64,000 nucleotides of DNA, taken from a virus. Its lineage: Duplodnaviria > Caudoviricetes. A model generated the notes under the pieces. It was given only the letters and a program-made list of their open reading frames with translations. It was not told where the DNA came from and did no database searches. Numbering within the stretch: position 1 is the first letter of the stretch; each line of letters opens with the position of its first letter. The position numbers were made by a program, and so were the translations under genes. The stretch lies in IMG/VR virus record IMGVR_UViG_3300046615_000208, positions 1-64,000 of that record; one strand, 5' to 3'. This document shows positions 3,597 through 32,887 of the stretch, in pieces.

Positions 3597-3767
3597 ATGG
3601 ATGCTCTTGGAATTGTATTGGCAATATTGGTTGGTCTCGCAGTTTTGATAGGCATCGCATTCTTTGGTTTCGTTGTGTGGTTTATTTACAAAGTCTTCCG
3701 GCAGGTCTTCAATGGCCATAAGGAATTCGATAAGCGTTGGAATGAAGGTCCCTTCAACCGACGATAG
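3597..3767 (+). CDS. Small membrane protein (56 aa)
   Basis: AAGGA SD; MDALGIVLAILVGLAVLIGIAFFGFVVWFIYK hydrophobic helix; below the ORF-track cutoff. Confidence 0.7.
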   Translation: MDALGIVLAILVGLAVLIGIAFFGFVVWFIYKVFRQVFNGHKEFDKRWNEGPFNRR

Positions 3768-5274: not shown

Positions 5275-5550
5275 ATGTCAAAAGAGAACCCAGCAGATTA
5301 CGGCTCTCCGAAAACCGAACTACCCCTGAAGAACCTCGCTGATCAGCCCCTGAAAAAGGATGTGAAAGCTGGCAAGGTTCTCACAGCCGACTCCGAAACC
5401 AAGCTCTCCACCGAAACTCCCGACCCGAATGTAACTTCTGTTGGCGGCACCGCTGACACTGTCACCTCGGGCACTGTGACTGGGGATGCTAACACCACCC
5501 GCAGCACTACACGTACTTCGCGAAGCACATCAACGACTGACGGAACCTAA
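5275..5550 (+). CDS. Hypothetical Thr/Ser-rich protein
   Basis: GGAGGA SD; upstream TGGTACAAT extended -10. Confidence 0.7.
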   Translation: MSKENPADYGSPKTELPLKNLADQPLKKDVKAGKVLTADSETKLSTETPDPNVTSVGGTADTVTSGTVTGDANTTRSTTRTSRSTSTTDGT

Positions 5551-5571
5551 CTCGAAGAAGTTCCCTTAGGC

Positions 5572-5609
5572 CGTGATGTAGCCCCGAGTCACGTAAAACA
5601 AATCGGGGC
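5572..5609 (+). ncRNA. H-type RNA pseudoknot in a 3' UTR
   Basis: CGTGA/TCACG stem interlocked with GCCCCGA/TCGGGGC, A-rich linker TAAAACAAA. Confidence 0.55.
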
Positions 5610-5657
5610 GCTTTGCGTTTGACAGACCTACCAGACTCTGGTAGAATAGTTACATAT

Positions 5658-5725
5658 GGACGGGGCGCTGGGCGCAAGCATCCTTTACACGGAAGCTCCG
5701 GAGGGTTCGATACCCTCTCCGTCTA
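5658..5725 (+). tRNA. tRNA-Val(TAC), minimal D-arm
   Basis: GGACGGG/TCCGTCT; GCGC-TGG-GCGC D-arm; loop TTTACAC; GAGGG-TTCGATA-CCCTC. Confidence 0.72.
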
Positions 5726-5802
5726 CGTATGGTTACTGAATCCATCTGACCGCTCTTTGGTAGAACCCCTAGAGTCCACAGTAGTCAGGCTAAAATCAGT
5801 AT

Positions 5803-5876
5803 GCACCCTTATCCCAATTGGCAGAGGACTACGGCTTAGACCCGTAGCGTTGAGAGTTCGAGTCTCTCAGGGTGCA
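5803..5876 (+). tRNA. tRNA-Leu(TAG), short variable loop
   Basis: GCACCCT/AGGGTGC; CTACGG-CTTAGAC-CCGTAG. Confidence 0.88.
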
Positions 5877-5878
5877 CG

Positions 5879-5933
5879 GTGGCCAGTTAACGGGCCGCAA
5901 GGAAGGATGTGGGTTCGATTCCCTGCTGGCTGC
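5879..5933 (+). ncRNA. Mini tRNA-like element (acceptor stem plus T-arm, GCAA tetraloop)
   Basis: GTGGCCAG/CTGGCTGC; GGG-TTCGATT-CCC; CC-GCAA-GG. Confidence 0.4.
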
Positions 5934-5949
5934 AAACATCTTTCCGCCT

Positions 5950-6023
5950 GCTTCCTTACCCCAATTGGCAGAGGGGCTGGCCTCAAAAGTCAGTAGTTGA
6001 GAGTTCGAGTCTCTCAGGAAGCA
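5950..6023 (+). tRNA. tRNA-Leu(CAA), short variable loop
   Basis: GCTTCCT/AGGAAGC; GCTGGC-CTCAAAA-GTCAGT. Confidence 0.88.
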
Positions 6024-6028
6024 CGTAG

Positions 6029-6058
6029 TTGACATTCAACCAGAGTCGTAGTACACTG
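6029..6058 (+). promoter_or_regulatory. sigmaA-type promoter driving a leaderless mRNA
   Basis: TTGACA-N18-TACACT, ATG 5 nt downstream. Confidence 0.6.
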
Positions 6059-6063
6059 GGGGG

Positions 6064-6483
6064 ATGGAAACGACATTTGATGATGTAAAACGAGAAGCAG
6101 TTCTGTCCGGTGGACAGACAATCCACGCCTTTCACAAGAGCGGTCAGTGTTTCGGGGAATTTTGCCCAGTACACGATCCGTCAGATCATAAGCTTCGGGG
6201 GTATGATCTGCACTACAACTTCATGGCTGGGAGCTTCTTCCGCGATGTAGACGGTGAAATGGTGGTCGATCCTGATGATTACGTCCTCAATACCGCAGGG
6301 AAAGTGATTGTTTTCAATCTCATTTCTTGCAACCATTGTGGTGATCTGGTAGCATCCACACACAGGCACGATTTCCGTAGCTGTTCCTGTGGGAAGGTTG
6401 CCGCAGATGGTGGAAGTGCATACTTACGCAGACTGGGATCGGCGGGAGACTTCAAGGAACTGTCGGTTATTGCGTATAAGTAA
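6064..6483 (+). CDS. Zinc-ribbon protein
   Basis: CNHCGD..STHRHDFRSCSCGKVAADGG motif common in phage proteins. Confidence 0.75.
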   Translation: METTFDDVKREAVLSGGQTIHAFHKSGQCFGEFCPVHDPSDHKLRGYDLHYNFMAGSFFRDVDGEMVVDPDDYVLNTAGKVIVFNLISCNHCGDLVASTHRHDFRSCSCGKVAADGGSAYLRRLGSAGDFKELSVIAYK

Positions 6484-7822: not shown

Positions 7823-8299
7823 ATGACTAAAGTTAAGTATACCAAAGAGCTTCTACAAGAAACTGTAGATGCAAGCACGTCTATGCGTGGTGTACTGGCA
7901 CTTCTAGGTTTAAAACTGGCAGGCGGGTCCTTTACGCACGTGAAGAAGCGCATTGATGGGTATGGTATATCTACCGGACACTTCACTGGGCAAGGGCATA
8001 TGAAGGGTAAACCAGCCCAAAGAAGAAAAACCTGCGAAGAGATTTTTATAGTATTACCCGAAGGTTCTAATAGACCTAAAGCTATACAACTGCGTAGAGC
8101 GCTCCTAGAAGTAGGAGTAAAAGAGGAATGTGTTGAATGTGGGCAAGGCCCACTCTGGAACGGTAAGAAACTCCAGTTGCATGTTGACCACGTCAACGGA
8201 AACTGGTACAATAATCTTAGAGAAAATTTGAGATTTCTTTGTCCTAACTGCCATACACAGCAGGAAGAGACTAACAGGCCTCATAAGAACTCTAAATAA
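7823..8299 (+). CDS. HNH homing endonuclease
   Basis: CVEC..LHVDHVNGNWYNN..ENLRFLCPNCH; AT-richer than flanks. Confidence 0.9.
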   Translation: MTKVKYTKELLQETVDASTSMRGVLALLGLKLAGGSFTHVKKRIDGYGISTGHFTGQGHMKGKPAQRRKTCEEIFIVLPEGSNRPKAIQLRRALLEVGVKEECVECGQGPLWNGKKLQLHVDHVNGNWYNNLRENLRFLCPNCHTQQEETNRPHKNSK

Positions 8300-8300
8300 T

Positions 8301-8384
8301 GGGTGTGTGGCGGAACGGCGAGACGCGCTGCGCTTAGAACGCAGTACATAAGAACCACTGTGGGTTCAAATCCCACCATGCCCA
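8301..8384 (+). tRNA. tRNA-Leu(TAG), longer variable region
   Basis: GGGTGTG/CATGCCC; CTGCG-CTTAGAA-CGCAG. Confidence 0.9.
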
Positions 8385-8488
8385 CGAATGTTCGTTATTG
8401 ACATTGTGTCCGCATATCTGATAATATGTGGGTAGCACGAAGCGAGGAATTATCAGTACCCTCACAAAATAACATGTGTTTGTGATTA

Positions 8489-9214: not shown

Positions 9215-9287
9215 GCCTCTATGGTCTAAACGGCAATGACTCGCGTCTTTTACACGTGAAATTCCAGTTCGAATCTGGGTGGGGGCA
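9215..9287 (+). tRNA. tRNA-Lys(TTT)
   Basis: CGCGT-CTTTTAC-ACGTG. Confidence 0.9.
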
Positions 9288-9291
9288 CAAT

Positions 9292-9320
9292 TTGACACTC
9301 TCGCGAAGAGATGTTAAACT
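9292..9320 (+). promoter_or_regulatory. sigmaA-type promoter of the 9358 gene and downstream RNA
   Basis: TTGACA-N17-TAAACT with TG extension. Confidence 0.7.
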
Positions 9321-9357
9321 AGATACAACAAAGACAAACGACGAAAGGTAAATTATC

Positions 9358-10089
9358 ATGACTAAGCTTAATCAGATTGTTGCAGTGGAAAAGGGCGAAA
9401 AGGCTCGCGCACTCACCGAGGAAACCGTACTCCACCGCGAAGTCCAGAAGACCCCTCTTCTCGCCGGTATCTCCCGTACCTACAAGCCCAAGGACGACGA
9501 TGGCGACCAGCTTCCCGCTGAGTCTACCCGCGTTCAGGTCAACGCCGAGGACATCCTCGAAAAGCTGGGCAAGACCCTGACCAATCTCTTCGACATCACC
9601 CTCACCAAGGAAGTTGCCAACACCAAGGCGACCGCAGATGTAGTTGTTGATGGCAAGACCCTCATCAAGGGCGCTCCGGTCACCTACCTGCTCTTCCTTG
9701 AGAAGCAGCTTATCAACCTCCGTACCTTCGTCGCCAAGCTCCCGATCCTCGATCCGGCTGAGAACTGGACCAAGGACCCGAACACTGGTGCTTGGGCAAC
9801 CGATCCCACCCAGACCGTCAAGACCAAGAAGGTTCCGAAGAACTGGGTCAAGGCTGAAGCTACCGACCGCCACCCGGCACAGGTCGAAATCTTCCACGAG
9901 GATGTCATTCAGGGAACATGGACCACAGTCAAGTTCTCCGGTGCCCTTCCCCAGACCCGAGTCGCGGAACTCACCGAGCGTGTCGATGCTCTGATCAAGG
10001 CAGTTAAGTTTGCCCGAGAAGAAGCCAACAACGCCGACGTTGATGACACCAAGGCAGCTAAGGCTGTCTTCGACTACCTACTCAAGTAG
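9358..10089 (+). CDS. Conserved protein of unknown function (243 aa), linked to the downstream tRNA-like RNA
   Basis: Strongly biased, highly-expressed-type codon use; motifs KLNQIVAVEKG, RTYKPKDDDGDQLPAE, PVTYLLFLEKQL, HPAQVE, KFSGA, VKFAREEAN. Confidence 0.9.
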   Translation: MTKLNQIVAVEKGEKARALTEETVLHREVQKTPLLAGISRTYKPKDDDGDQLPAESTRVQVNAEDILEKLGKTLTNLFDITLTKEVANTKATADVVVDGKTLIKGAPVTYLLFLEKQLINLRTFVAKLPILDPAENWTKDPNTGAWATDPTQTVKTKKVPKNWVKAEATDRHPAQVEIFHEDVIQGTWTTVKFSGALPQTRVAELTERVDALIKAVKFAREEANNADVDDTKAAKAVFDYLLK

Positions 10090-10109
10090 TCCCCTAGATT
10101 CCTACGTGA

Positions 10110-10490
10110 GCGCGTAGGTGCACGAAAGTGCTAGACTGAAGTTGATTCCTCAGACTAAAAAGTATTCTCAGCCCCAGTGGAGGTTCGAATCCTCCCCCTG
10201 CCACCAATTCATGGCAGGGTAGTCCAAATGGTAGAGACAGCCCCGGATACGTATTAGACTCAAGTTATCGCTCAAGTCTTAGTACCGTACCACCCTTGTG
10301 GGTCAACCACTACACTAACTATTTATGAGATAAGGGTTCGATCCCCTTTCCGCCCTCTGAGTCCTCGACTCTATGTAACACCCAAGGGCGGATGGCTTAA
10401 TGGCATAGCGCATAAACTTCAAACTGAAGTGTAGTTTAAACGTATCACAGGGGAATGATGGAAACAATCATGCAAATATGATCAAACATT
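10110..10490 (+). ncRNA. Double circularly permuted tRNA-like (Y-RNA/YrlA-like) ncRNA
   Basis: Two T-arm -> loop-closed acceptor stem -> D-arm modules (10179-10238, 10332-10409), each on a long closing stem. Confidence 0.75.
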
Positions 10491-10492
10491 TG

Positions 10493-10529
10493 GACCCCCT
10501 AGAGTCGGATATGCTCTAGGGGGTCGTTT
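10493..10529 (+). terminator. Intrinsic terminator
   Basis: GACCCCCTAGAG/CTCTAGGGGGTC then GTTT. Confidence 0.75.
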
Positions 10530-10572
10530 CCATTTCCGGGGTATAATGGTTTGTCACCTATTAGGAGAAACC

Positions 10573-11009: not shown

Positions 11010-11432
11010 ATGATTCAAAATCCAGTATACGTAAAAACAAACCCTGACTACATCTACGTCGGGGAAGTCGCGGACTGGACTGACGGGGACACAGTCAAGG
11101 TCGATATTTGGATTTTCCTAGACCTAGGATTCCAAGACTATCAGCACAACCTCAAGAAACACAGCTTCAGGCTCACAGGCATTGACACTCCAGAAAAGGG
11201 AAAACCGGGATACAAAGAAGCAACAGCCTTCAACGAAGAAAATTTCCCTGTCGGAACCGAGATCAGGGTCAAGACCTACAAGATGTCTACAGGATACACC
11301 TCCGGTGAGAAGTACGGAAGATACCTTGCGGACATCTACTCGACGGATATGGACTTCAATCTCAACGAAGCTCTCGTGGCTTCCGGACTGGCCGTTCATT
11401 ACGATGGGGGCAAGAAGTTGACAACTGCCTAG
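11010..11432 (+). CDS. Thermonuclease (SNase-like)
   Basis: DGDT, RLTGIDTPE, KYGRYLA, NEALVASGLA motifs. Confidence 0.9.
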   Translation: MIQNPVYVKTNPDYIYVGEVADWTDGDTVKVDIWIFLDLGFQDYQHNLKKHSFRLTGIDTPEKGKPGYKEATAFNEENFPVGTEIRVKTYKMSTGYTSGEKYGRYLADIYSTDMDFNLNEALVASGLAVHYDGGKKLTTA

Positions 11433-11500: not shown

Positions 11501-13417
11501 ATGTCGCTAATTGCTCCCGTAACCGCACGTGTGTCCCAAGTGTTTGGGGCAAACCCAAGTTCAATTCAGCCTAACGGCCACACCGGTAAAGACTATGCCA
11601 TCCCGATCAACACGCCTGTCATGGCTGCTGGTGCGGGAACTGTTGTGTGGGCTGACTGGGCCACCAAACTCTCCGCGTCTAACAAGTGGTGGATCGCCCC
11701 GGCCTACGCCGGTATCTGCGTCGTCATCGACCACGGAGACGGCTTCCTGACCCTTTACGCCCACCTGAACAGCACTCCGCTGAACATCGGAAACAGGGTC
11801 ACTCAGGGGCAGCAGATCGGCCTCTCAGGCACCACAGGACTCTCTACCGGCCCTCACCTCCACTTCGAGGTGCTGGGCTGGCCGCTACAGCCTTACAACG
11901 GCTTCTACGGGCGTCTGAACCCGGACAAGTACCTGACGACTATCGTTCCGGCAGCGTCTCTCGCCGCCAACCAGCGTAAGGCTGGGGCCGACAACGTGAA
12001 CATGCGTTCCGAACCCAAGTCCAGCGCCAAGGTTCTCCGTGTCATCAATGGGAACACCGTTGAGACATTCACCGGATGGATCGACGGAGAGACTGTCAAG
12101 GGTATCAACATCTGGTACAAAGACGCTCAGGGTTATGCTTGGTCTGGTGGATTCACGTCCCAGTCCACTACGGGCCTGACTAATCTCAACCCGAAGCCTC
12201 CTGTGGTTGTCAATCCGGCTCAGCGTACTGCTGGCACCGATAATGTGAACATGCGCTCCGAGCCGAAGACTTCTGCCCCGGTTATCCGTGTCATCTCCGG
12301 GAAGACCAACGAGGTCTTCACCGGCTACGTGATCGGTGAACCGGTCAAGGGGATCAACGTCTGGTACAAGGATGCTCAAGGCTATGCGTGGGCCGGTGGC
12401 TTCACCTCTCAGGCGACCACAGGTCTGAATAACCTTACGCCAGCACCAGCACCAGCACCAGCACCAGCGCCTAAGCCGGTACCAGTGCCGCCAGTAGTAG
12501 TGCCTGCCCCAACTCCGGAACAGCCGAAGACTGTCGAGAGAACAGTTGTAGACGTAGGTGTACGCGTACGTACTCTACCATACCTGACTGCACCAGTCAA
12601 GGAAGTCCTACCGGCCAACACCAAGGTGACTGTAAAGTCCTTCGTGAACTCCGATAAGGCACTTGACACTTATGTATGGTACGCTTTGGACAACGGATAC
12701 GCTCACGCCTCCGGATTTACTGACCAGACTACATCCGGACTCACTGAGTCTGCTAAGCCTGCTGCACCAGTGGACCCAGAGCCTGAGCTAGGGTACTCCT
12801 TCACTCCGGACTTTGACTTTGTCGAGTACCGACCTGCACATACCGATAACATGGGTGACGGGAACTTCCCGGCCAACCCTGCTATGATTGTACTGCACCA
12901 GATGGACGCGAAGGAGAAGCACCCTTCCCTCGATGGCGTGATCAGCTTCTTCCAGACACCCCGCCCGAATGCACCTACATCGGCTCACTTCGGTGTCTCA
13001 GGTAAGCGAATCGTTCAGTTTGTCTCCCTAAAGGACCGTGCGTTCCACGCTAAGGAAGTTGGCAACAATTACATCGGCATTGAGGTTGACCCACAGGAAG
13101 ACCCGGATACCGTTGAGTCCGTGAAGAAGCTCATTAGGGCTTTGAACGCCAAGTATGGTAAAGTATTCCAGTACATCAAGCACCAGAACGTTCCGGGCAA
13201 CTCCACCTCGTGTGGTAACGATATCCACCTAGAGAAGTACATCGTGGATGCACCTACACCGCAGCCACCTGTGATCGTTGTTCCTCCGATTGTGGACCCA
13301 GAGCCAGAACCGACACCTACCCCGGAGCCTGCTCCAGAGAAGGATGAAGAGTTCGAAGCTCTCGTTGACGATCTCCTAGTTTCCTTGAAGAAGGTTCTTG
13401 TTCATCTGAACAAGTAA
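11501..13417 (+). CDS. Endolysin: M23 peptidase, three SH3-like repeats, amidase_2 domain
   Basis: HTGKD, YAHL, STGPHLHFE; repeated NMRSEPK..WYK..GYAW; IVLH..SAHF..AFHA..IGIE..H..C. Confidence 0.9.
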   Translation: MSLIAPVTARVSQVFGANPSSIQPNGHTGKDYAIPINTPVMAAGAGTVVWADWATKLSASNKWWIAPAYAGICVVIDHGDGFLTLYAHLNSTPLNIGNRVTQGQQIGLSGTTGLSTGPHLHFEVLGWPLQPYNGFYGRLNPDKYLTTIVPAASLAANQRKAGADNVNMRSEPKSSAKVLRVINGNTVETFTGWIDGETVKGINIWYKDAQGYAWSGGFTSQSTTGLTNLNPKPPVVVNPAQRTAGTDNVNMRSEPKTSAPVIRVISGKTNEVFTGYVIGEPVKGINVWYKDAQGYAWAGGFTSQATTGLNNLTPAPAPAPAPAPKPVPVPPVVVPAPTPEQPKTVERTVVDVGVRVRTLPYLTAPVKEVLPANTKVTVKSFVNSDKALDTYVWYALDNGYAHASGFTDQTTSGLTESAKPAAPVDPEPELGYSFTPDFDFVEYRPAHTDNMGDGNFPANPAMIVLHQMDAKEKHPSLDGVISFFQTPRPNAPTSAHFGVSGKRIVQFVSLKDRAFHAKEVGNNYIGIEVDPQEDPDTVESVKKLIRALNAKYGKVFQYIKHQNVPGNSTSCGNDIHLEKYIVDAPTPQPPVIVVPPIVDPEPEPTPTPEPAPEKDEEFEALVDDLLVSLKKVLVHLNK

Positions 13418-17463: not shown

Positions 17464-17788
17464 GTGGATGACCGGTTTCGACAGGTTACCTGAAATAAGA
17501 AACGCAACACGAAACGGACTACATTCGTAAAAGTGGTCAAAACAATAATCGCAAAAAACGATTTCGCACTAGCCGCGTAGGCTAGCCCGGAGACCGAAAG
17601 CCTCGCAGGTCTTCAACGGGTCATCTAGAGGCTACTACGACCCAGCCAACGTAGACGGCAGTCGGAAGAGCTAAGCTACAAAACCTCTGTGGAGTCCTAG
17701 AGCGACACAGTTGACTTAGTCTAGGAATTGTTGTAGAATGTTCTTATGGAAAGTATCTTGGACGGGGGTTCGATTCCCCCCATCTACA
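17464..17788 (+). ncRNA. ssrA: tmRNA, tag (A)AKNDFALAA
   Basis: GTGGATG/CATCTAC with G3:U70, GGTTTCGAC 5' end, GGAC-GGGGG-TTCGATT-CCCCC T-arm, tag ORF 17551-17580 after ATAATC. Confidence 0.93.
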
Positions 17789-17801
17789 CGAAAGGGAGAA
17801 T

Positions 17802-32164: not shown

Positions 32165-32887
32165 ATGACTGACGCAAAACTATATCTAGTAGGAGGTGCA
32201 GTACGAGACCACTACCGGGATGCTAAATCCAAAGACATCGATTTCGCCGTAGAGGCGGATTCCTTTGATGCCATGCGTGATTTCCTCAACGAACGAGACT
32301 TTGAAATCTTCACCGAGGCCGAGCGCTACTTCACCATCCGGGCACGTGCCCCAAAGGGTAAGTTCCAGTTCGGGAATTTCGATATGTCCAACACCACGTT
32401 CGACTTCACCCTGACCCGTAAGGAACGCGACTACACCGATGGTCGGCACCCTGACGTTGTGGAGATGGGAGACATCTACGATGACCTTTCCCGCCGTGAC
32501 TTCACCATGAACGCCATAGCCATCAACTCCAAGGGTAAGACACTCGATCCCTTCAATGGTGTGGACGACATCTATTACTCGACCATCAAATGTGTTGGTG
32601 GAACCGAACGCCTCATCGAGGATGGACTGCGGATTATCCGTGCACTTCGGTTCCGTGTCCAGCTAGGGTTTAGCTTCGATTCGGAGGTACATGATTTCAT
32701 GCTTACCCCGGAAGCCGTAGATGCCCTCAGGAAGGTCTCGCAGGACCGAGTGAGGCAGGAGTTGGCAAAAGCTCTGAAGATCGATCCTATGGCCACTCTA
32801 AGGCTTCTGACGACCTATAGCGAGATTGGTGAGCTTATCTTTGACGAGATGGGAATCTGGTTGGAGCCTACAAGTAAAAACAAGTGA
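32165..32887 (+). CDS. cca: tRNA nucleotidyltransferase (class II CCA-adding), compact
   Basis: LVGGAVRD..DIDF, DL.RRDFTMNA, DPF.G, EDGLRIIRALRF. Confidence 0.9.
   Translation: MTDAKLYLVGGAVRDHYRDAKSKDIDFAVEADSFDAMRDFLNERDFEIFTEAERYFTIRARAPKGKFQFGNFDMSNTTFDFTLTRKERDYTDGRHPDVVEMGDIYDDLSRRDFTMNAIAINSKGKTLDPFNGVDDIYYSTIKCVGGTERLIEDGLRIIRALRFRVQLGFSFDSEVHDFMLTPEAVDALRKVSQDRVRQELAKALKIDPMATLRLLTTYSEIGELIFDEMGIWLEPTSKNK

What the first reader, a model, noticed from the sequence alone, without database searches (positions are those of the whole stretch)
9292..10529. Unknown conserved protein co-transcribed with a double, circularly permuted tRNA-like RNA (candidate Ro60-independent Y-RNA-like RNP system)
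Seen: one transcription unit of promoter (9292-9320), a 243-aa gene, ~400 nt without a long ORF, and a terminator (10493). The non-coding part holds two modules in the permuted order T-arm -> acceptor stem closed by a loop -> D-arm. Module 1 is GGAGG-TTCGAAT-CCTCC (10179-95), CCCTGCCA/TGGCAGGG (10196-10219) and TA-GTC-CAAATGGTAGA-GAC. Module 2 is AAGGG-TTCGATC-CCCTT (10332-48), TCCGCCCT/AGGGCGGA (10349-10392) and TG-GCT-TAATGGCAT-AGC. In place of an anticodon loop each module continues into a long interrupted helix (GTGCTAGACT/AGTCTTAGTAC; TTTATG/CATAAA plus ACTACACT/AGTGTAGT). Established: this permuted topology is that of bacterial YrlA Y RNAs, which bind Ro60/TROVE proteins. No TROVE gene is in the window and the adjacent protein shows no Ro60 resemblance I can see. 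Inference: protein and RNA form a ribonucleoprotein displaying two tRNA elbows, for example as a decoy for tRNA-targeting defence toxins or a scaffold for RNA enzymes.
Basis: partly seen in the sequence, partly recalled or inferred. Interest (0 to 1): 0.95.

Follow-up and report, generated by a model that had tools for sequence, protein, structure and literature searches.

The report
Two-headed tRNA-mimic RNA beside DUF7873
A phage gene for an unstudied protein (DUF7873) is followed by a folded RNA of about 445 bases with two back-to-front tRNA look-alikes, one copying leucine tRNA; the same gene-RNA pair recurs in many bacteria and phages, often without Ro60 (the usual partner of such RNAs), so it is probably an undescribed RNA-protein system.

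Summary
Window 9358-10089 encodes a full-length DUF7873 protein. It is followed by a structured RNA of about 445 nt (10090-10533) with two circularly permuted tRNA-like heads that lack an anticodon arm. Compensatory base changes support the T arms, the 7-bp acceptor stems, the module-2 D arm and both module-2 stalk helices.

- **Linkage:** The gene-RNA pair is present in 80/80 bacterial loci and in 75/75 Streptomycetaceae genomes with an intact gene. It is also present in all five sampled phages of Proteobacteria and cyanobacteria, at about 30% protein identity.
- **Ro60:** No TROVE gene was found in this phage, in two related phages, or in three host-type genomes. It is also missing from 28 of 76 DUF7873-positive Streptomycetaceae, so it is not an obligate partner. 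Genuine Rsr-YrlA loci exist separately.
- **New here:**
  - Head 1 copies tRNA-Leu in its D arm, variable loop and A73, and tracks the host's tRNA-Leu type.
  - The "terminator" is a conserved RNA element.
  - Head 1 is dispensable in some lineages.
- **Protein:** The predicted fold matches nothing known.

That protein and RNA form a particle is still inferred. I found no paper or Rfam family for it. This scan has reported the same unit before on other genomes.

The parts
9292..9320 (+). sigma-70-like promoter (TTGACA, 17 nt, TG-TAAACT) upstream of the unit
   Evidence: 10/12 matches with an extended -10 TG. This is a consensus match only; transcription was not shown.
9358..10089 (+). DUF7873 protein gene (243 aa)
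   Evidence: PF25283, E 1.7e-105, positions 1-242 of 244; 5925 homologues and 2339 clusters at 50% identity, all about 245 aa. AlphaFold2 pLDDT 87.9.
10101..10118 (+). 5' hairpin just after the stop codon, with a conserved loop (UGAGCR)
   Evidence: the stem covaries (UA/CG/GC) and the loop is conserved among phage relatives.
10120..10131 (+). small hairpin GCAC-GAAA-GUGC, variable in length among relatives
10132..10161 (+). repeated words (UAGACUGAAG, UCAGACUAA) with a short hairpin CUGAA/UUCAG; relatives have tandem hexamers here
   Evidence: L060 has AAGCUG four times and L007 has AAGGUC four times. Their role is unexplained.
10179..10238 (+). module 1: permuted tRNA-Leu-like head (T arm 10179-10195; acceptor 10196-10202/10213-10219; loop ACCAAUUCAU 10203-10212; U8-A9; D arm 10222-10238)
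   Evidence: covariation; A after the acceptor in 36/37; ACCA in 16/37. (tRNA-Leu likeness). (YrlA 20.2 bits; tmRNA_permuted 19.2 bits).
10255..10286 (+). conserved words flanking the nearly invariant loop UUAUCGCUC
   Evidence: Pairing of the flanks is not consistent among relatives.
10293..10453 (+). module-2 domain, the universal core: outer helix 10293-10301/10445-10453; conserved strands GGUCAACC and UUAAACGU; stalk 10309-10316/10428-10435; 10322-10327/10411-10416; T arm 10332-10348; acceptor 10349-10355/10386-10392 with an inserted hairpin 10359-10371; D arm 10395-10409
   Evidence: 95% paired; 29/31 pairs compensatory; model R1. R1 scores 92.6 bits here.
10458..10533 (+). 3' domain: enclosing helix 10458-10465/10526-10533 around a 13-bp hairpin 10493-10525 with conserved loop CGGAUAU
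   Evidence: hairpin with loop NGGMUAY in 75/95 loci, and the stems covary. In Talia1610 no U run follows it.

Best explanation
The DUF7873 gene and the roughly 445-nt RNA after it form one conserved functional unit. It is most likely a ribonucleoprotein of the Y-RNA kind that does not need Ro60.

The RNA is a single multi-helix body with two circularly permuted tRNA-like heads (T arm, closed 7-bp acceptor stem, D arm). It also has a 5' hairpin, runs of repeated short words, and a 3' hairpin with a conserved loop. Head 2 with its two-helix stalk and the 3' domain form the universal core, and this core is the likeliest protein-binding platform (inferred).

Head 1 is an accessory tRNA-Leu mimic. 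It has the 3-bp D stem and 11-nt D loop of tRNA-Leu, U8-A14, a 5-nt NCAGU variable loop and an A73-like base, often followed by encoded CCA. LeuRS reads the acceptor end and the elbow, not the anticodon. The 7-bp-stem YrlA of M. smegmatis is cut by RNase P and receives CCA in vivo. Head 1 is therefore predicted to be handled by RNase P, a CCA-adding enzyme and LeuRS or other tRNA-Leu-binding factors (inferred, not shown).

Shown: the anatomy, the covariation, the linkage, no TROVE gene detected in several carriers, and the tRNA-Leu likeness. Inferred: co-transcription, protein-RNA binding, processing and any charging.
For: - Linkage in bacteria: modules lie downstream of the gene in 78/80 bacterial loci. 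In the two exceptions the RNA lies 2.5 kb downstream.
- Linkage in Streptomycetaceae: of 121 genomes, 75/75 with an intact gene have a full-length R1 match of at least 75 bits, within a few hundred nt downstream where coordinates were listed. The exceptions are one decayed locus and one RNA remnant.
- Linkage in viral contigs and MAGs.
- Linkage in distant phages: Klebsiella, Vibrio, Rhizobium, Ralstonia and Pseudanabaena phages at about 30% protein identity all keep it.
- Covariation.
- No TROVE gene found: the own genome, Talia1610, GodonK and three bacterial genomes, and 28/76 DUF7873-positive Streptomycetaceae.
- tRNA-Leu mimicry, this phage: the best four D-arm matches among its 42 tRNAs are its four short tRNA-Leu genes.
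- tRNA-Leu mimicry, Klebsiella phage: the head-1 D arm is 19/19 nt identical to E. coli tRNA-Leu(CAG).
- tRNA-Leu mimicry, actinobacteria: in 25 Mb of genome the head-1 D-arm pattern occurs six times, three in head 1 and three in short tRNA-Leu genes.
- tRNA-Leu mimicry, variable loop: NCAGU here against ACAGC in S. coelicolor type I tRNA-Leu.
- Precedent for processing: PMC4201824.
- The phage encodes a CCA-adding-type nucleotidyltransferase at 32180-32584.
Against: - No direct evidence exists that the RNA accumulates or binds DUF7873.
- The protein is near neutral (pI about 6-7). Its predicted fold matches no known RNA-binding fold.
- Loss of head 1 in 14 Streptomyces loci leaves the protein 90-99% identical to its nearest relatives with a head, and no position tracks the loss. 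Head 1 is therefore not what constrains the protein.
- In several proteobacterial phages the acceptor loops are themselves hairpins, which argues against universal cleavage.
- TROVE is positively associated with DUF7873 in Streptomycetaceae (48/28/17/28, odds ratio 2.8) and is adjacent in one genome.
- The conserved strand AUCGAC at the base of the module-2 stalk faintly resembles the Ro60 motif GNCGAAN0-1G.
Confidence: 0.6

Rival explanations
1. It is an ordinary Y RNA of YrlA type whose real partner is a Ro60/Rsr encoded elsewhere (by the host, in the phage's case). DUF7873 is merely a neighbour.
For: - The permuted tRNA-like core is shared with YrlA.
- TROVE occurs in 65/121 Streptomycetaceae and is positively associated with DUF7873.
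- Rsr-YrlA lies 1.7 kb upstream of DUF7873 in one genome.
- A strand that weakly resembles the Ro60 motif is conserved.
Against: - Three bacterial genomes that carry the unit have no TROVE match, two of them complete chromosomes. So do 28/76 DUF7873-positive Streptomycetaceae.
- TROVE-positive genomes keep a separate, typical single-headed YrlA beside Rsr.
- Linkage of the RNA to DUF7873 is essentially absolute across phyla and phages, whereas adjacency to TROVE was seen once.
Confidence: 0.12
2. The RNA is only a cis-acting 3' untranslated element of the DUF7873 mRNA (a stabiliser, processing site or terminator), not a partner of the protein.
For: - It starts right after the stop codon.
- It shares the strand and apparently the promoter of the gene.
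- It ends in a strong hairpin.
Against: - In two Nocardia genomes a 2.5-kb insertion separates gene and RNA, yet the RNA is intact at 124 bits.
- An RNA remnant survives without the gene in one Streptomyces.
- About 445 nt with conserved loops, two tRNA-like heads that keep tRNA-Leu identity features, and covariation in at least seven helices is far more than a stabiliser needs.
Confidence: 0.1
3. It is a phage counter-defence decoy that soaks up tRNA-targeting toxins.
For: - In phages the unit sits inside or next to tRNA gene arrays.
- Heads without anticodons could titrate enzymes that read the elbow or the acceptor end.
Against: - The same unit is a single-copy chromosomal feature in 76/121 Streptomycetaceae, with ordinary neighbours (LytTR regulator, 6-phosphogluconate dehydrogenase, MmyB-like regulators).
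- No PADLOC match.
- Protein identity of about 60% between phage and Streptomyces copies points to a shared housekeeping-type constraint.
Confidence: 0.08
4. The modules are decayed or chance tRNA fragments, for example the junction of two tandem tRNA genes, with no function of their own.
For: Junctions of tandem identical tRNA genes score 47-50 bits with my model. Such junctions therefore mimic the topology and may be its evolutionary origin.
Against: - Acceptor strands here are 3-30 nt apart and pair with each other.
- Compensatory changes keep every helix.
- The non-tRNA parts are conserved across phyla.
- ARAGORN and the Rfam tRNA model call no tRNA here.
Confidence: 0.02

Closest known systems
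YrlA-type bacterial and mycobacteriophage Y RNAs with Ro60/Rsr (Rfam RF02553; Chen et al. 2014, PMC4201824)
   Same: - Circularly permuted tRNA-like domain without an anticodon arm (T arm, acceptor-like stem closed by a loop, D arm).
- Basal stem formed by the flanks.
- Encoded next to a protein gene, and present in phages.
- M. smegmatis YrlA also has a 7-bp acceptor stem and is cut by RNase P and CCA-added.
- The core of my model cross-detects genuine Streptomyces YrlA.
   Different: - About 445 nt against 80-130 nt, and two heads instead of one.
- Head 1 carries tRNA-Leu features.
- Extra conserved 5' and 3' domains and repeated words.
- Follows DUF7873, not next to TROVE. No TROVE gene was found in this phage or in many other carriers.
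- Far below the Rfam gathering score (20.2 against 69).
tmRNA with SmpB, especially two-piece (permuted) tmRNA (Rfam RF04321)
   Same: - tRNA-like domain without an anticodon arm, in the order T arm, acceptor 3' strand, CCA, spacer, acceptor 5' strand.
- A dedicated small protein gene lies directly upstream, as smpB often lies upstream of ssrA (own knowledge).
- Weak hit to tmRNA_permuted at 19.2 bits.
   Different: - No G3:U70 alanine identity: U70-G3 in 2/37 sequences.
- I saw no conserved tag reading frame.
- The D arm is intact.
- The phage has a normal tmRNA at 17464-17791.
- DUF7873 shows no likeness to SmpB.
Type I (short variable loop) tRNA-Leu of Actinobacteria and their phages (PMC6614811)
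   Same: - Head 1 shares the GCC/GGC 3-bp D stem with an 11-nt loop CAAnnGGYAGA.
- It also shares U8-A14, an ACAGY-type 5-nt variable loop, a canonical T loop and A73.
   Different: - No anticodon arm.
- The strands are permuted and the acceptor stem is closed by a loop.
- It is embedded in a large RNA and is not called as a tRNA.

Membership tests
YrlA / bacterial Y RNA (RF02553) | Permuted tRNA-like domain: T arm, acceptor-like stem closed by a loop, D arm | tested here: met
   Both modules have it, with covariation.
YrlA / bacterial Y RNA (RF02553) | Reaches the Rfam gathering score (69 bits) | tested here: not met
   20.2 bits, E 0.1, for module 1 only. Caveat: genuine Streptomyces YrlA beside TROVE also reach only 38-41 bits.
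YrlA / bacterial Y RNA (RF02553) | Encoded next to a Ro60/TROVE gene | tested here: not met
   No TROVE match in the own genome, two related phages or three bacterial carriers. Adjacency was seen in 1 of 48 co-occurring Streptomycetaceae genomes.
YrlA / bacterial Y RNA (RF02553) | 80-130 nt with one tRNA-like domain and a Ro60-binding basal stem carrying GNCGAAN0-1G | tested here: inconclusive
   Size and number of heads differ (about 445 nt, two heads). A conserved AUCGAC / GUCAAC strand at the base of the module-2 stalk resembles the motif only loosely.
YrlA / bacterial Y RNA (RF02553) | Bound by Ro60 in vivo | not testable with these tools
   Needs immunoprecipitation.
tmRNA (one- or two-piece) | Rfam model score; G3:U70 alanine identity; tag reading frame | tested here: not met
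   tmRNA_permuted scores 19.2 bits against 47. U70-G3 occurs in 2/37 sequences. A bona fide tmRNA lies at 17464-17791. The tag frame was looked for by eye only.
Canonical tRNA | Cloverleaf with an anticodon arm, called by ARAGORN or Rfam RF00005 | tested here: not met
   only a 13.7-bit partial T-arm hit.
DUF7873 (Pfam PF25283) | Full-length match above the curated cut-off | tested here: met
   352.6 bits against a cut-off of 27, positions 1-242 of 244.
tRNA-Leu mimic (head 1) | tRNA-Leu-type D arm, U8-A14, 5-nt ACAGY variable loop, A73 | tested here: met
   identity elements taken from PMC6614811.
tRNA-Leu mimic (head 1) | Recognised or charged by LeuRS after the acceptor loop is opened | not testable with these tools
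   Needs RNase P cleavage and leucylation assays.

The most novel reading that the evidence does not exclude
Head 1 is opened by RNase P and 3' processing, receives CCA and is charged with leucine. The RNA then carries an aminoacyl group without being able to decode. DUF7873 is its dedicated handler, either as a stand-in for the missing anticodon arm (as SmpB is for tmRNA) or as an enzyme that uses the aminoacyl-RNA. This would be a new aminoacyl-RNA-dependent system shared by bacteria and their phages.
Probability: 0.15. Interest if true: 0.95.

Novelty: new variant of a known kind. Interest (0 to 1): 0.8.

Why it matters
If protein and RNA do work together, this is a second protein partner class for Y-RNA-like tRNA mimics. 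It would define a large new structured RNA family, about 445 nt and conserved from Actinobacteria to phages of Proteobacteria and cyanobacteria.

Its leucine-tRNA-like head tracks the host's tRNA-Leu type. This gives a concrete, testable handle (RNase P, CCA-adding enzyme, LeuRS) on the open question of what the tRNA-like domains of bacterial Y RNAs are for.

It would also correct phage annotations. Spurious small ORFs, and probably a 'suppressor tRNA', have been called inside this RNA.

Tried and rejected
- **Protein fold and family:** Foldseek against PDB and BFVD, VIA-align against 48,161 chains, a profile search of PDB sequences, the ESM Atlas, PHROGs, NCBIfam and PADLOC gave no informative relative. 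The best was 3kdq, an unknown C. diphtheriae protein (Z 7.8, rmsd 8.1). A single-sequence AlphaFold2 run was useless (pLDDT 43).
- **Genome context tool:** I read cellular neighbours from ORFs and Pfam instead.
- **Kissing-loop idea:** I considered pairing between the 5' hairpin loop (GAGCG) and the UUAUCGCUC loop. It co-changes in one phage clade (GAGCA/UGCUC) but fails in GodonK and in Streptomyces L043/L068. Not adopted.
- **3' hairpin loop pairing:** pairing of this loop with the head-1 D arm (GGCUAC/GUAGCC) fits one Streptomyces clade only. Not adopted.
- **Repeated words as a helix:** pairing is inconsistent among relatives.
- **Extra 'full-length' R1 matches at 47-50 bits:** these turned out to be junctions of tandem tRNA genes.
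- **Tag-like reading frame:** a quick look between the heads found no conserved stop or frame.
- **Protein changes that track loss of head 1:** none found.
- **RtcB:** absent from the phage.
- **Literature:** five searches on DUF7873, YrlA and tRNA mimics found no description of this unit.
Full report
**What is in the window.** The window is the first 64 kb of a 171.7-kb virus record, 99% complete by CheckV. It carries 42 tRNA genes and a tmRNA. Directly after tRNA-Lys (9215-9288) lie three features in order:
- a promoter-like site at 9292-9320 (10/12 matches plus TG);
- a 243-aa ORF at 9358-10089;
- about 450 nt without a long ORF, ending in a 13-bp hairpin at 10493-10525.

The ORF is a full-length member of Pfam DUF7873 (E 1.7e-105). 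It has no PHROG, NCBIfam or PADLOC match. The non-coding stretch folds better than all shuffles (z = -4.55).

**The gene-RNA pair is conserved very widely.**
- DUF7873 has 5925 homologues in one database and 2339 clusters at 50% identity in another. All are about 245 aa, with no fusions seen.
- Arthrobacter phages Talia1610, Racecar and Mimi and Gordonia phages GodonK and Phendrix keep both modules after the gene, again among tRNA genes.
- So do nine IMG/VR contigs and five MAG contigs.
- Of 80 loci from isolate and MAG genomes, 78 have at least one module within 700 nt downstream. These come from Streptomyces, Nocardia, Kitasatospora, Micromonospora, Actinomadura, Actinoplanes, Catenulispora, Embleya, and one MAG each of Blastocatellia and Ktedonobacteraceae.
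- In the two exceptions (Nocardia) the intact RNA lies 2.5 kb downstream, after an insertion (124 bits).
- In an even sample of 121 Streptomycetaceae genomes, 76 have DUF7873. All 75 with an intact gene have a full-length match of at least 75 bits to my module-2 model. Where coordinates were listed, the match begins within a few hundred nt downstream on the same strand.
- The remaining cases are a decayed gene fragment with a weak RNA (G043) and an RNA remnant without the gene (G044).
- DUF7873 also occurs at about 30% identity in 75 sequenced phages, including Vibrio, Rhizobium, Klebsiella/Serratia jumbo phages, Ralstonia phiRSL1 and cyanophages. All five that I sampled have permuted modules after the gene.
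- Cellular neighbours are ordinary and not conserved.

**RNA structure.**
- Module-2 domain: I aligned 40 diverse sequences with MAFFT (window 10282-10462). RNAalifold independently predicted an outer helix, a 9-bp stalk, the T arm, the 7-bp acceptor stem and the D arm.
- On that alignment 95.0% of cells pair, against 70.2% after shuffling and 41-46% with slid partners. Compensatory changes occur in 29 of 31 pairs, and 305 cells are changed on both sides against 83 expected.
- Module 1: in 37 sequences the T arm is 99.5% paired and the acceptor stem 99.6% paired, with compensatory changes in 7/7 acceptor pairs. The D stem is invariant GCC/GGC except in this window, which has a compensated U-A.
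- Other conserved parts are the 5' hairpin with loop UGAGCR, the loop UUAUCGCUC, and the strands AUCGACC and UUAAACGU.
- The 3' hairpin has loop NGGMUAY in 75/95 loci. A covarying helix encloses it (window 10458-10465/10526-10533). The 'terminator' is therefore part of the RNA, which spans about 10090-10533.
- The runs of words such as AGACUGAAG become perfect tandem hexamers in some relatives: AAGCUG four times in L060 and AAGGUC four times in L007. They are not consistently paired, and I cannot explain them.

**Relation to Ro60 and YrlA.**
- The Rfam YrlA model aligns end to end with module 1, but at 20.2 bits against a gathering score of 69.
- No TROVE gene was found in the phage, in Talia1610 and GodonK, or in a Streptomyces, a Nocardia and a Micromonospora genome that carry the unit.
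- In the 121 Streptomycetaceae, TROVE is present in 65. My cross-tally gives: both 48, DUF7873 only 28, TROVE only 17, neither 28. Ro60 is therefore not required. There is a positive association (odds ratio 2.8), which may reflect genome size or relatedness.
- The tRNA-like core of my model also hits short elements about 1 kb upstream of TROVE genes. These are genuine single-headed YrlA (Rfam 38-41 bits). The two RNA types coexist at separate loci.
- In one genome they are neighbours: YrlA, Rsr, then DUF7873 1.7 kb further on.

**Head 1 imitates tRNA-Leu.**
- Its D arm has a 3-bp stem and an 11-nt loop CAAnnGGYAGA.
- Among the 42 tRNAs of this phage, the four best matches to it are the four short tRNA-Leu genes.
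- In the Klebsiella phage FBKp24 the corresponding 19 nt are identical to positions 8-26 of E. coli tRNA-Leu(CAG).
- In three actinobacterial genomes (25 Mb) the pattern GCCCAA-N1-5-GGNAGAGGC occurs six times: three in head 1 and three in short tRNA-Leu genes.
- The five bases before the T stem are NCAGU. The variable loop of S. coelicolor type I tRNA-Leu(CAA) is ACAGC (PMC6614811).
- The base after the acceptor 3' strand is A in 36/37 sequences, and ACCA is encoded in 16/37.
- The paper read lists the acceptor end, U8-A14 and elbow tertiary contacts as bacterial tRNA-Leu identity elements, and no anticodon base.
- M. smegmatis YrlA has a 7-bp acceptor stem. It is cleaved by RNase P in vitro, and is cleaved and CCA-added in vivo (PMC4201824).
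- The phage also encodes a CCA-adding-type nucleotidyltransferase at 32180-32584.
- From this I infer, but have not shown, that head 1 is a substrate or ligand of tRNA-Leu-handling enzymes.
- Head 1 is not universal. In 14 Streptomyces loci, and apparently in the Rhizobium phage, its place is taken by a plain hairpin. This happens without any tracking change in the protein.
- Head 2 has a 4-bp, freely covarying D stem and a G or U after the acceptor. It looks like YrlA rather than any one tRNA.

**The protein.** With a 58-sequence alignment, AlphaFold2 gives a confident model (pLDDT 87.9, pTM 0.62). It has long helices and beta hairpins. No search found a convincing structural or sequence relative. 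The protein is near neutral and highly charged, with many invariant polar residues, for example H172-P-A-Q, E181-D182 and R220-E221. Whether it binds RNA or is an enzyme is open.

**Verdict.**
- The best reading is a conserved DUF7873-RNA unit of the Y-RNA kind that works without Ro60, with a tRNA-Leu-mimicking accessory head.
- Binding, processing and function remain inferred.
- I found no Rfam family at E <= 0.01 and no paper for it (11, 25, 37, 85, 86).
- Earlier follow-ups of this scan reached the same core reading on other genomes.
- As far as their summaries show, what I add is:
  - the tRNA-Leu mimicry and its tracking of the host;
  - the conserved 3' domain;
  - the linkage in proteobacterial and cyanobacterial phages;
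  - the separated Nocardia loci;
  - the TROVE cross-tally, with one adjacency.

Noticed in passing
window 1703-23993: There are 42 tRNA genes in arrays, plus a tmRNA (17464-17791, tag AKNDFALAA). Four tRNA-Leu genes are short (75 nt, type I: 5803, 5950, 7428, 23259) and one is long (8301-8385).
   Followed up: partly
window 32180-32584: A phage-encoded nucleotidyltransferase of the CCA-adding / poly(A) polymerase family (PF01743, 82.7 bits), in an open frame of 256 aa.
   Followed up: no
window 6064-6483, 7823-8299, 11010-11432, 11501-13417: Two ORFs lie between tRNA genes: a DUF7695 protein and an HNH endonuclease. Downstream of the RNA are an SNase-like endonuclease and a 638-aa endolysin (M23 peptidase, SH3, amidase_2).
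   Followed up: no
L108 3518-3597 (Klebsiella phage vB_KpM_FBKp24); L002 3918-4046 (Gordonia phage GodonK gp151): Deposited annotations call a 'tRNA-Sup-TTA' and a small reverse-strand ORF inside the homologous RNA. The tRNA call overlaps head 2 and both calls are probably spurious.
   Followed up: partly
L101 3008-3163, L103 3007-3162: Junctions of tandem identical tRNA genes score 47-50 bits end to end with the permuted-module model. Tandem tRNA duplication is a plausible origin of the permuted heads.
   Followed up: partly
L106 (Streptomycetaceae genome G068): YrlA 1951-2061, TROVE ORF ending at 3734, DUF7873 5451-6185: This is the only case seen where an Rsr-YrlA locus sits next to the DUF7873 unit (1.7 kb apart, same strand).
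   Followed up: partly
L102 2556-2704 (- strand) (Streptomycetaceae genome G044); G043:C62:58725-59041: Two decayed loci. One is an RNA remnant (module-2 domain plus 3' hairpin) without the gene. The other is a DUF7873 fragment with a weak RNA match.
   Followed up: yes
window 10132-10161 and 10255-10286; L060, L007: Repeated words (AGACUNAAG) flank the heads and become tandem hexamers in relatives. The whole set changes in concert in L007 (AAGGUC type). Unexplained; they may be repeated binding sites.
   Followed up: partly
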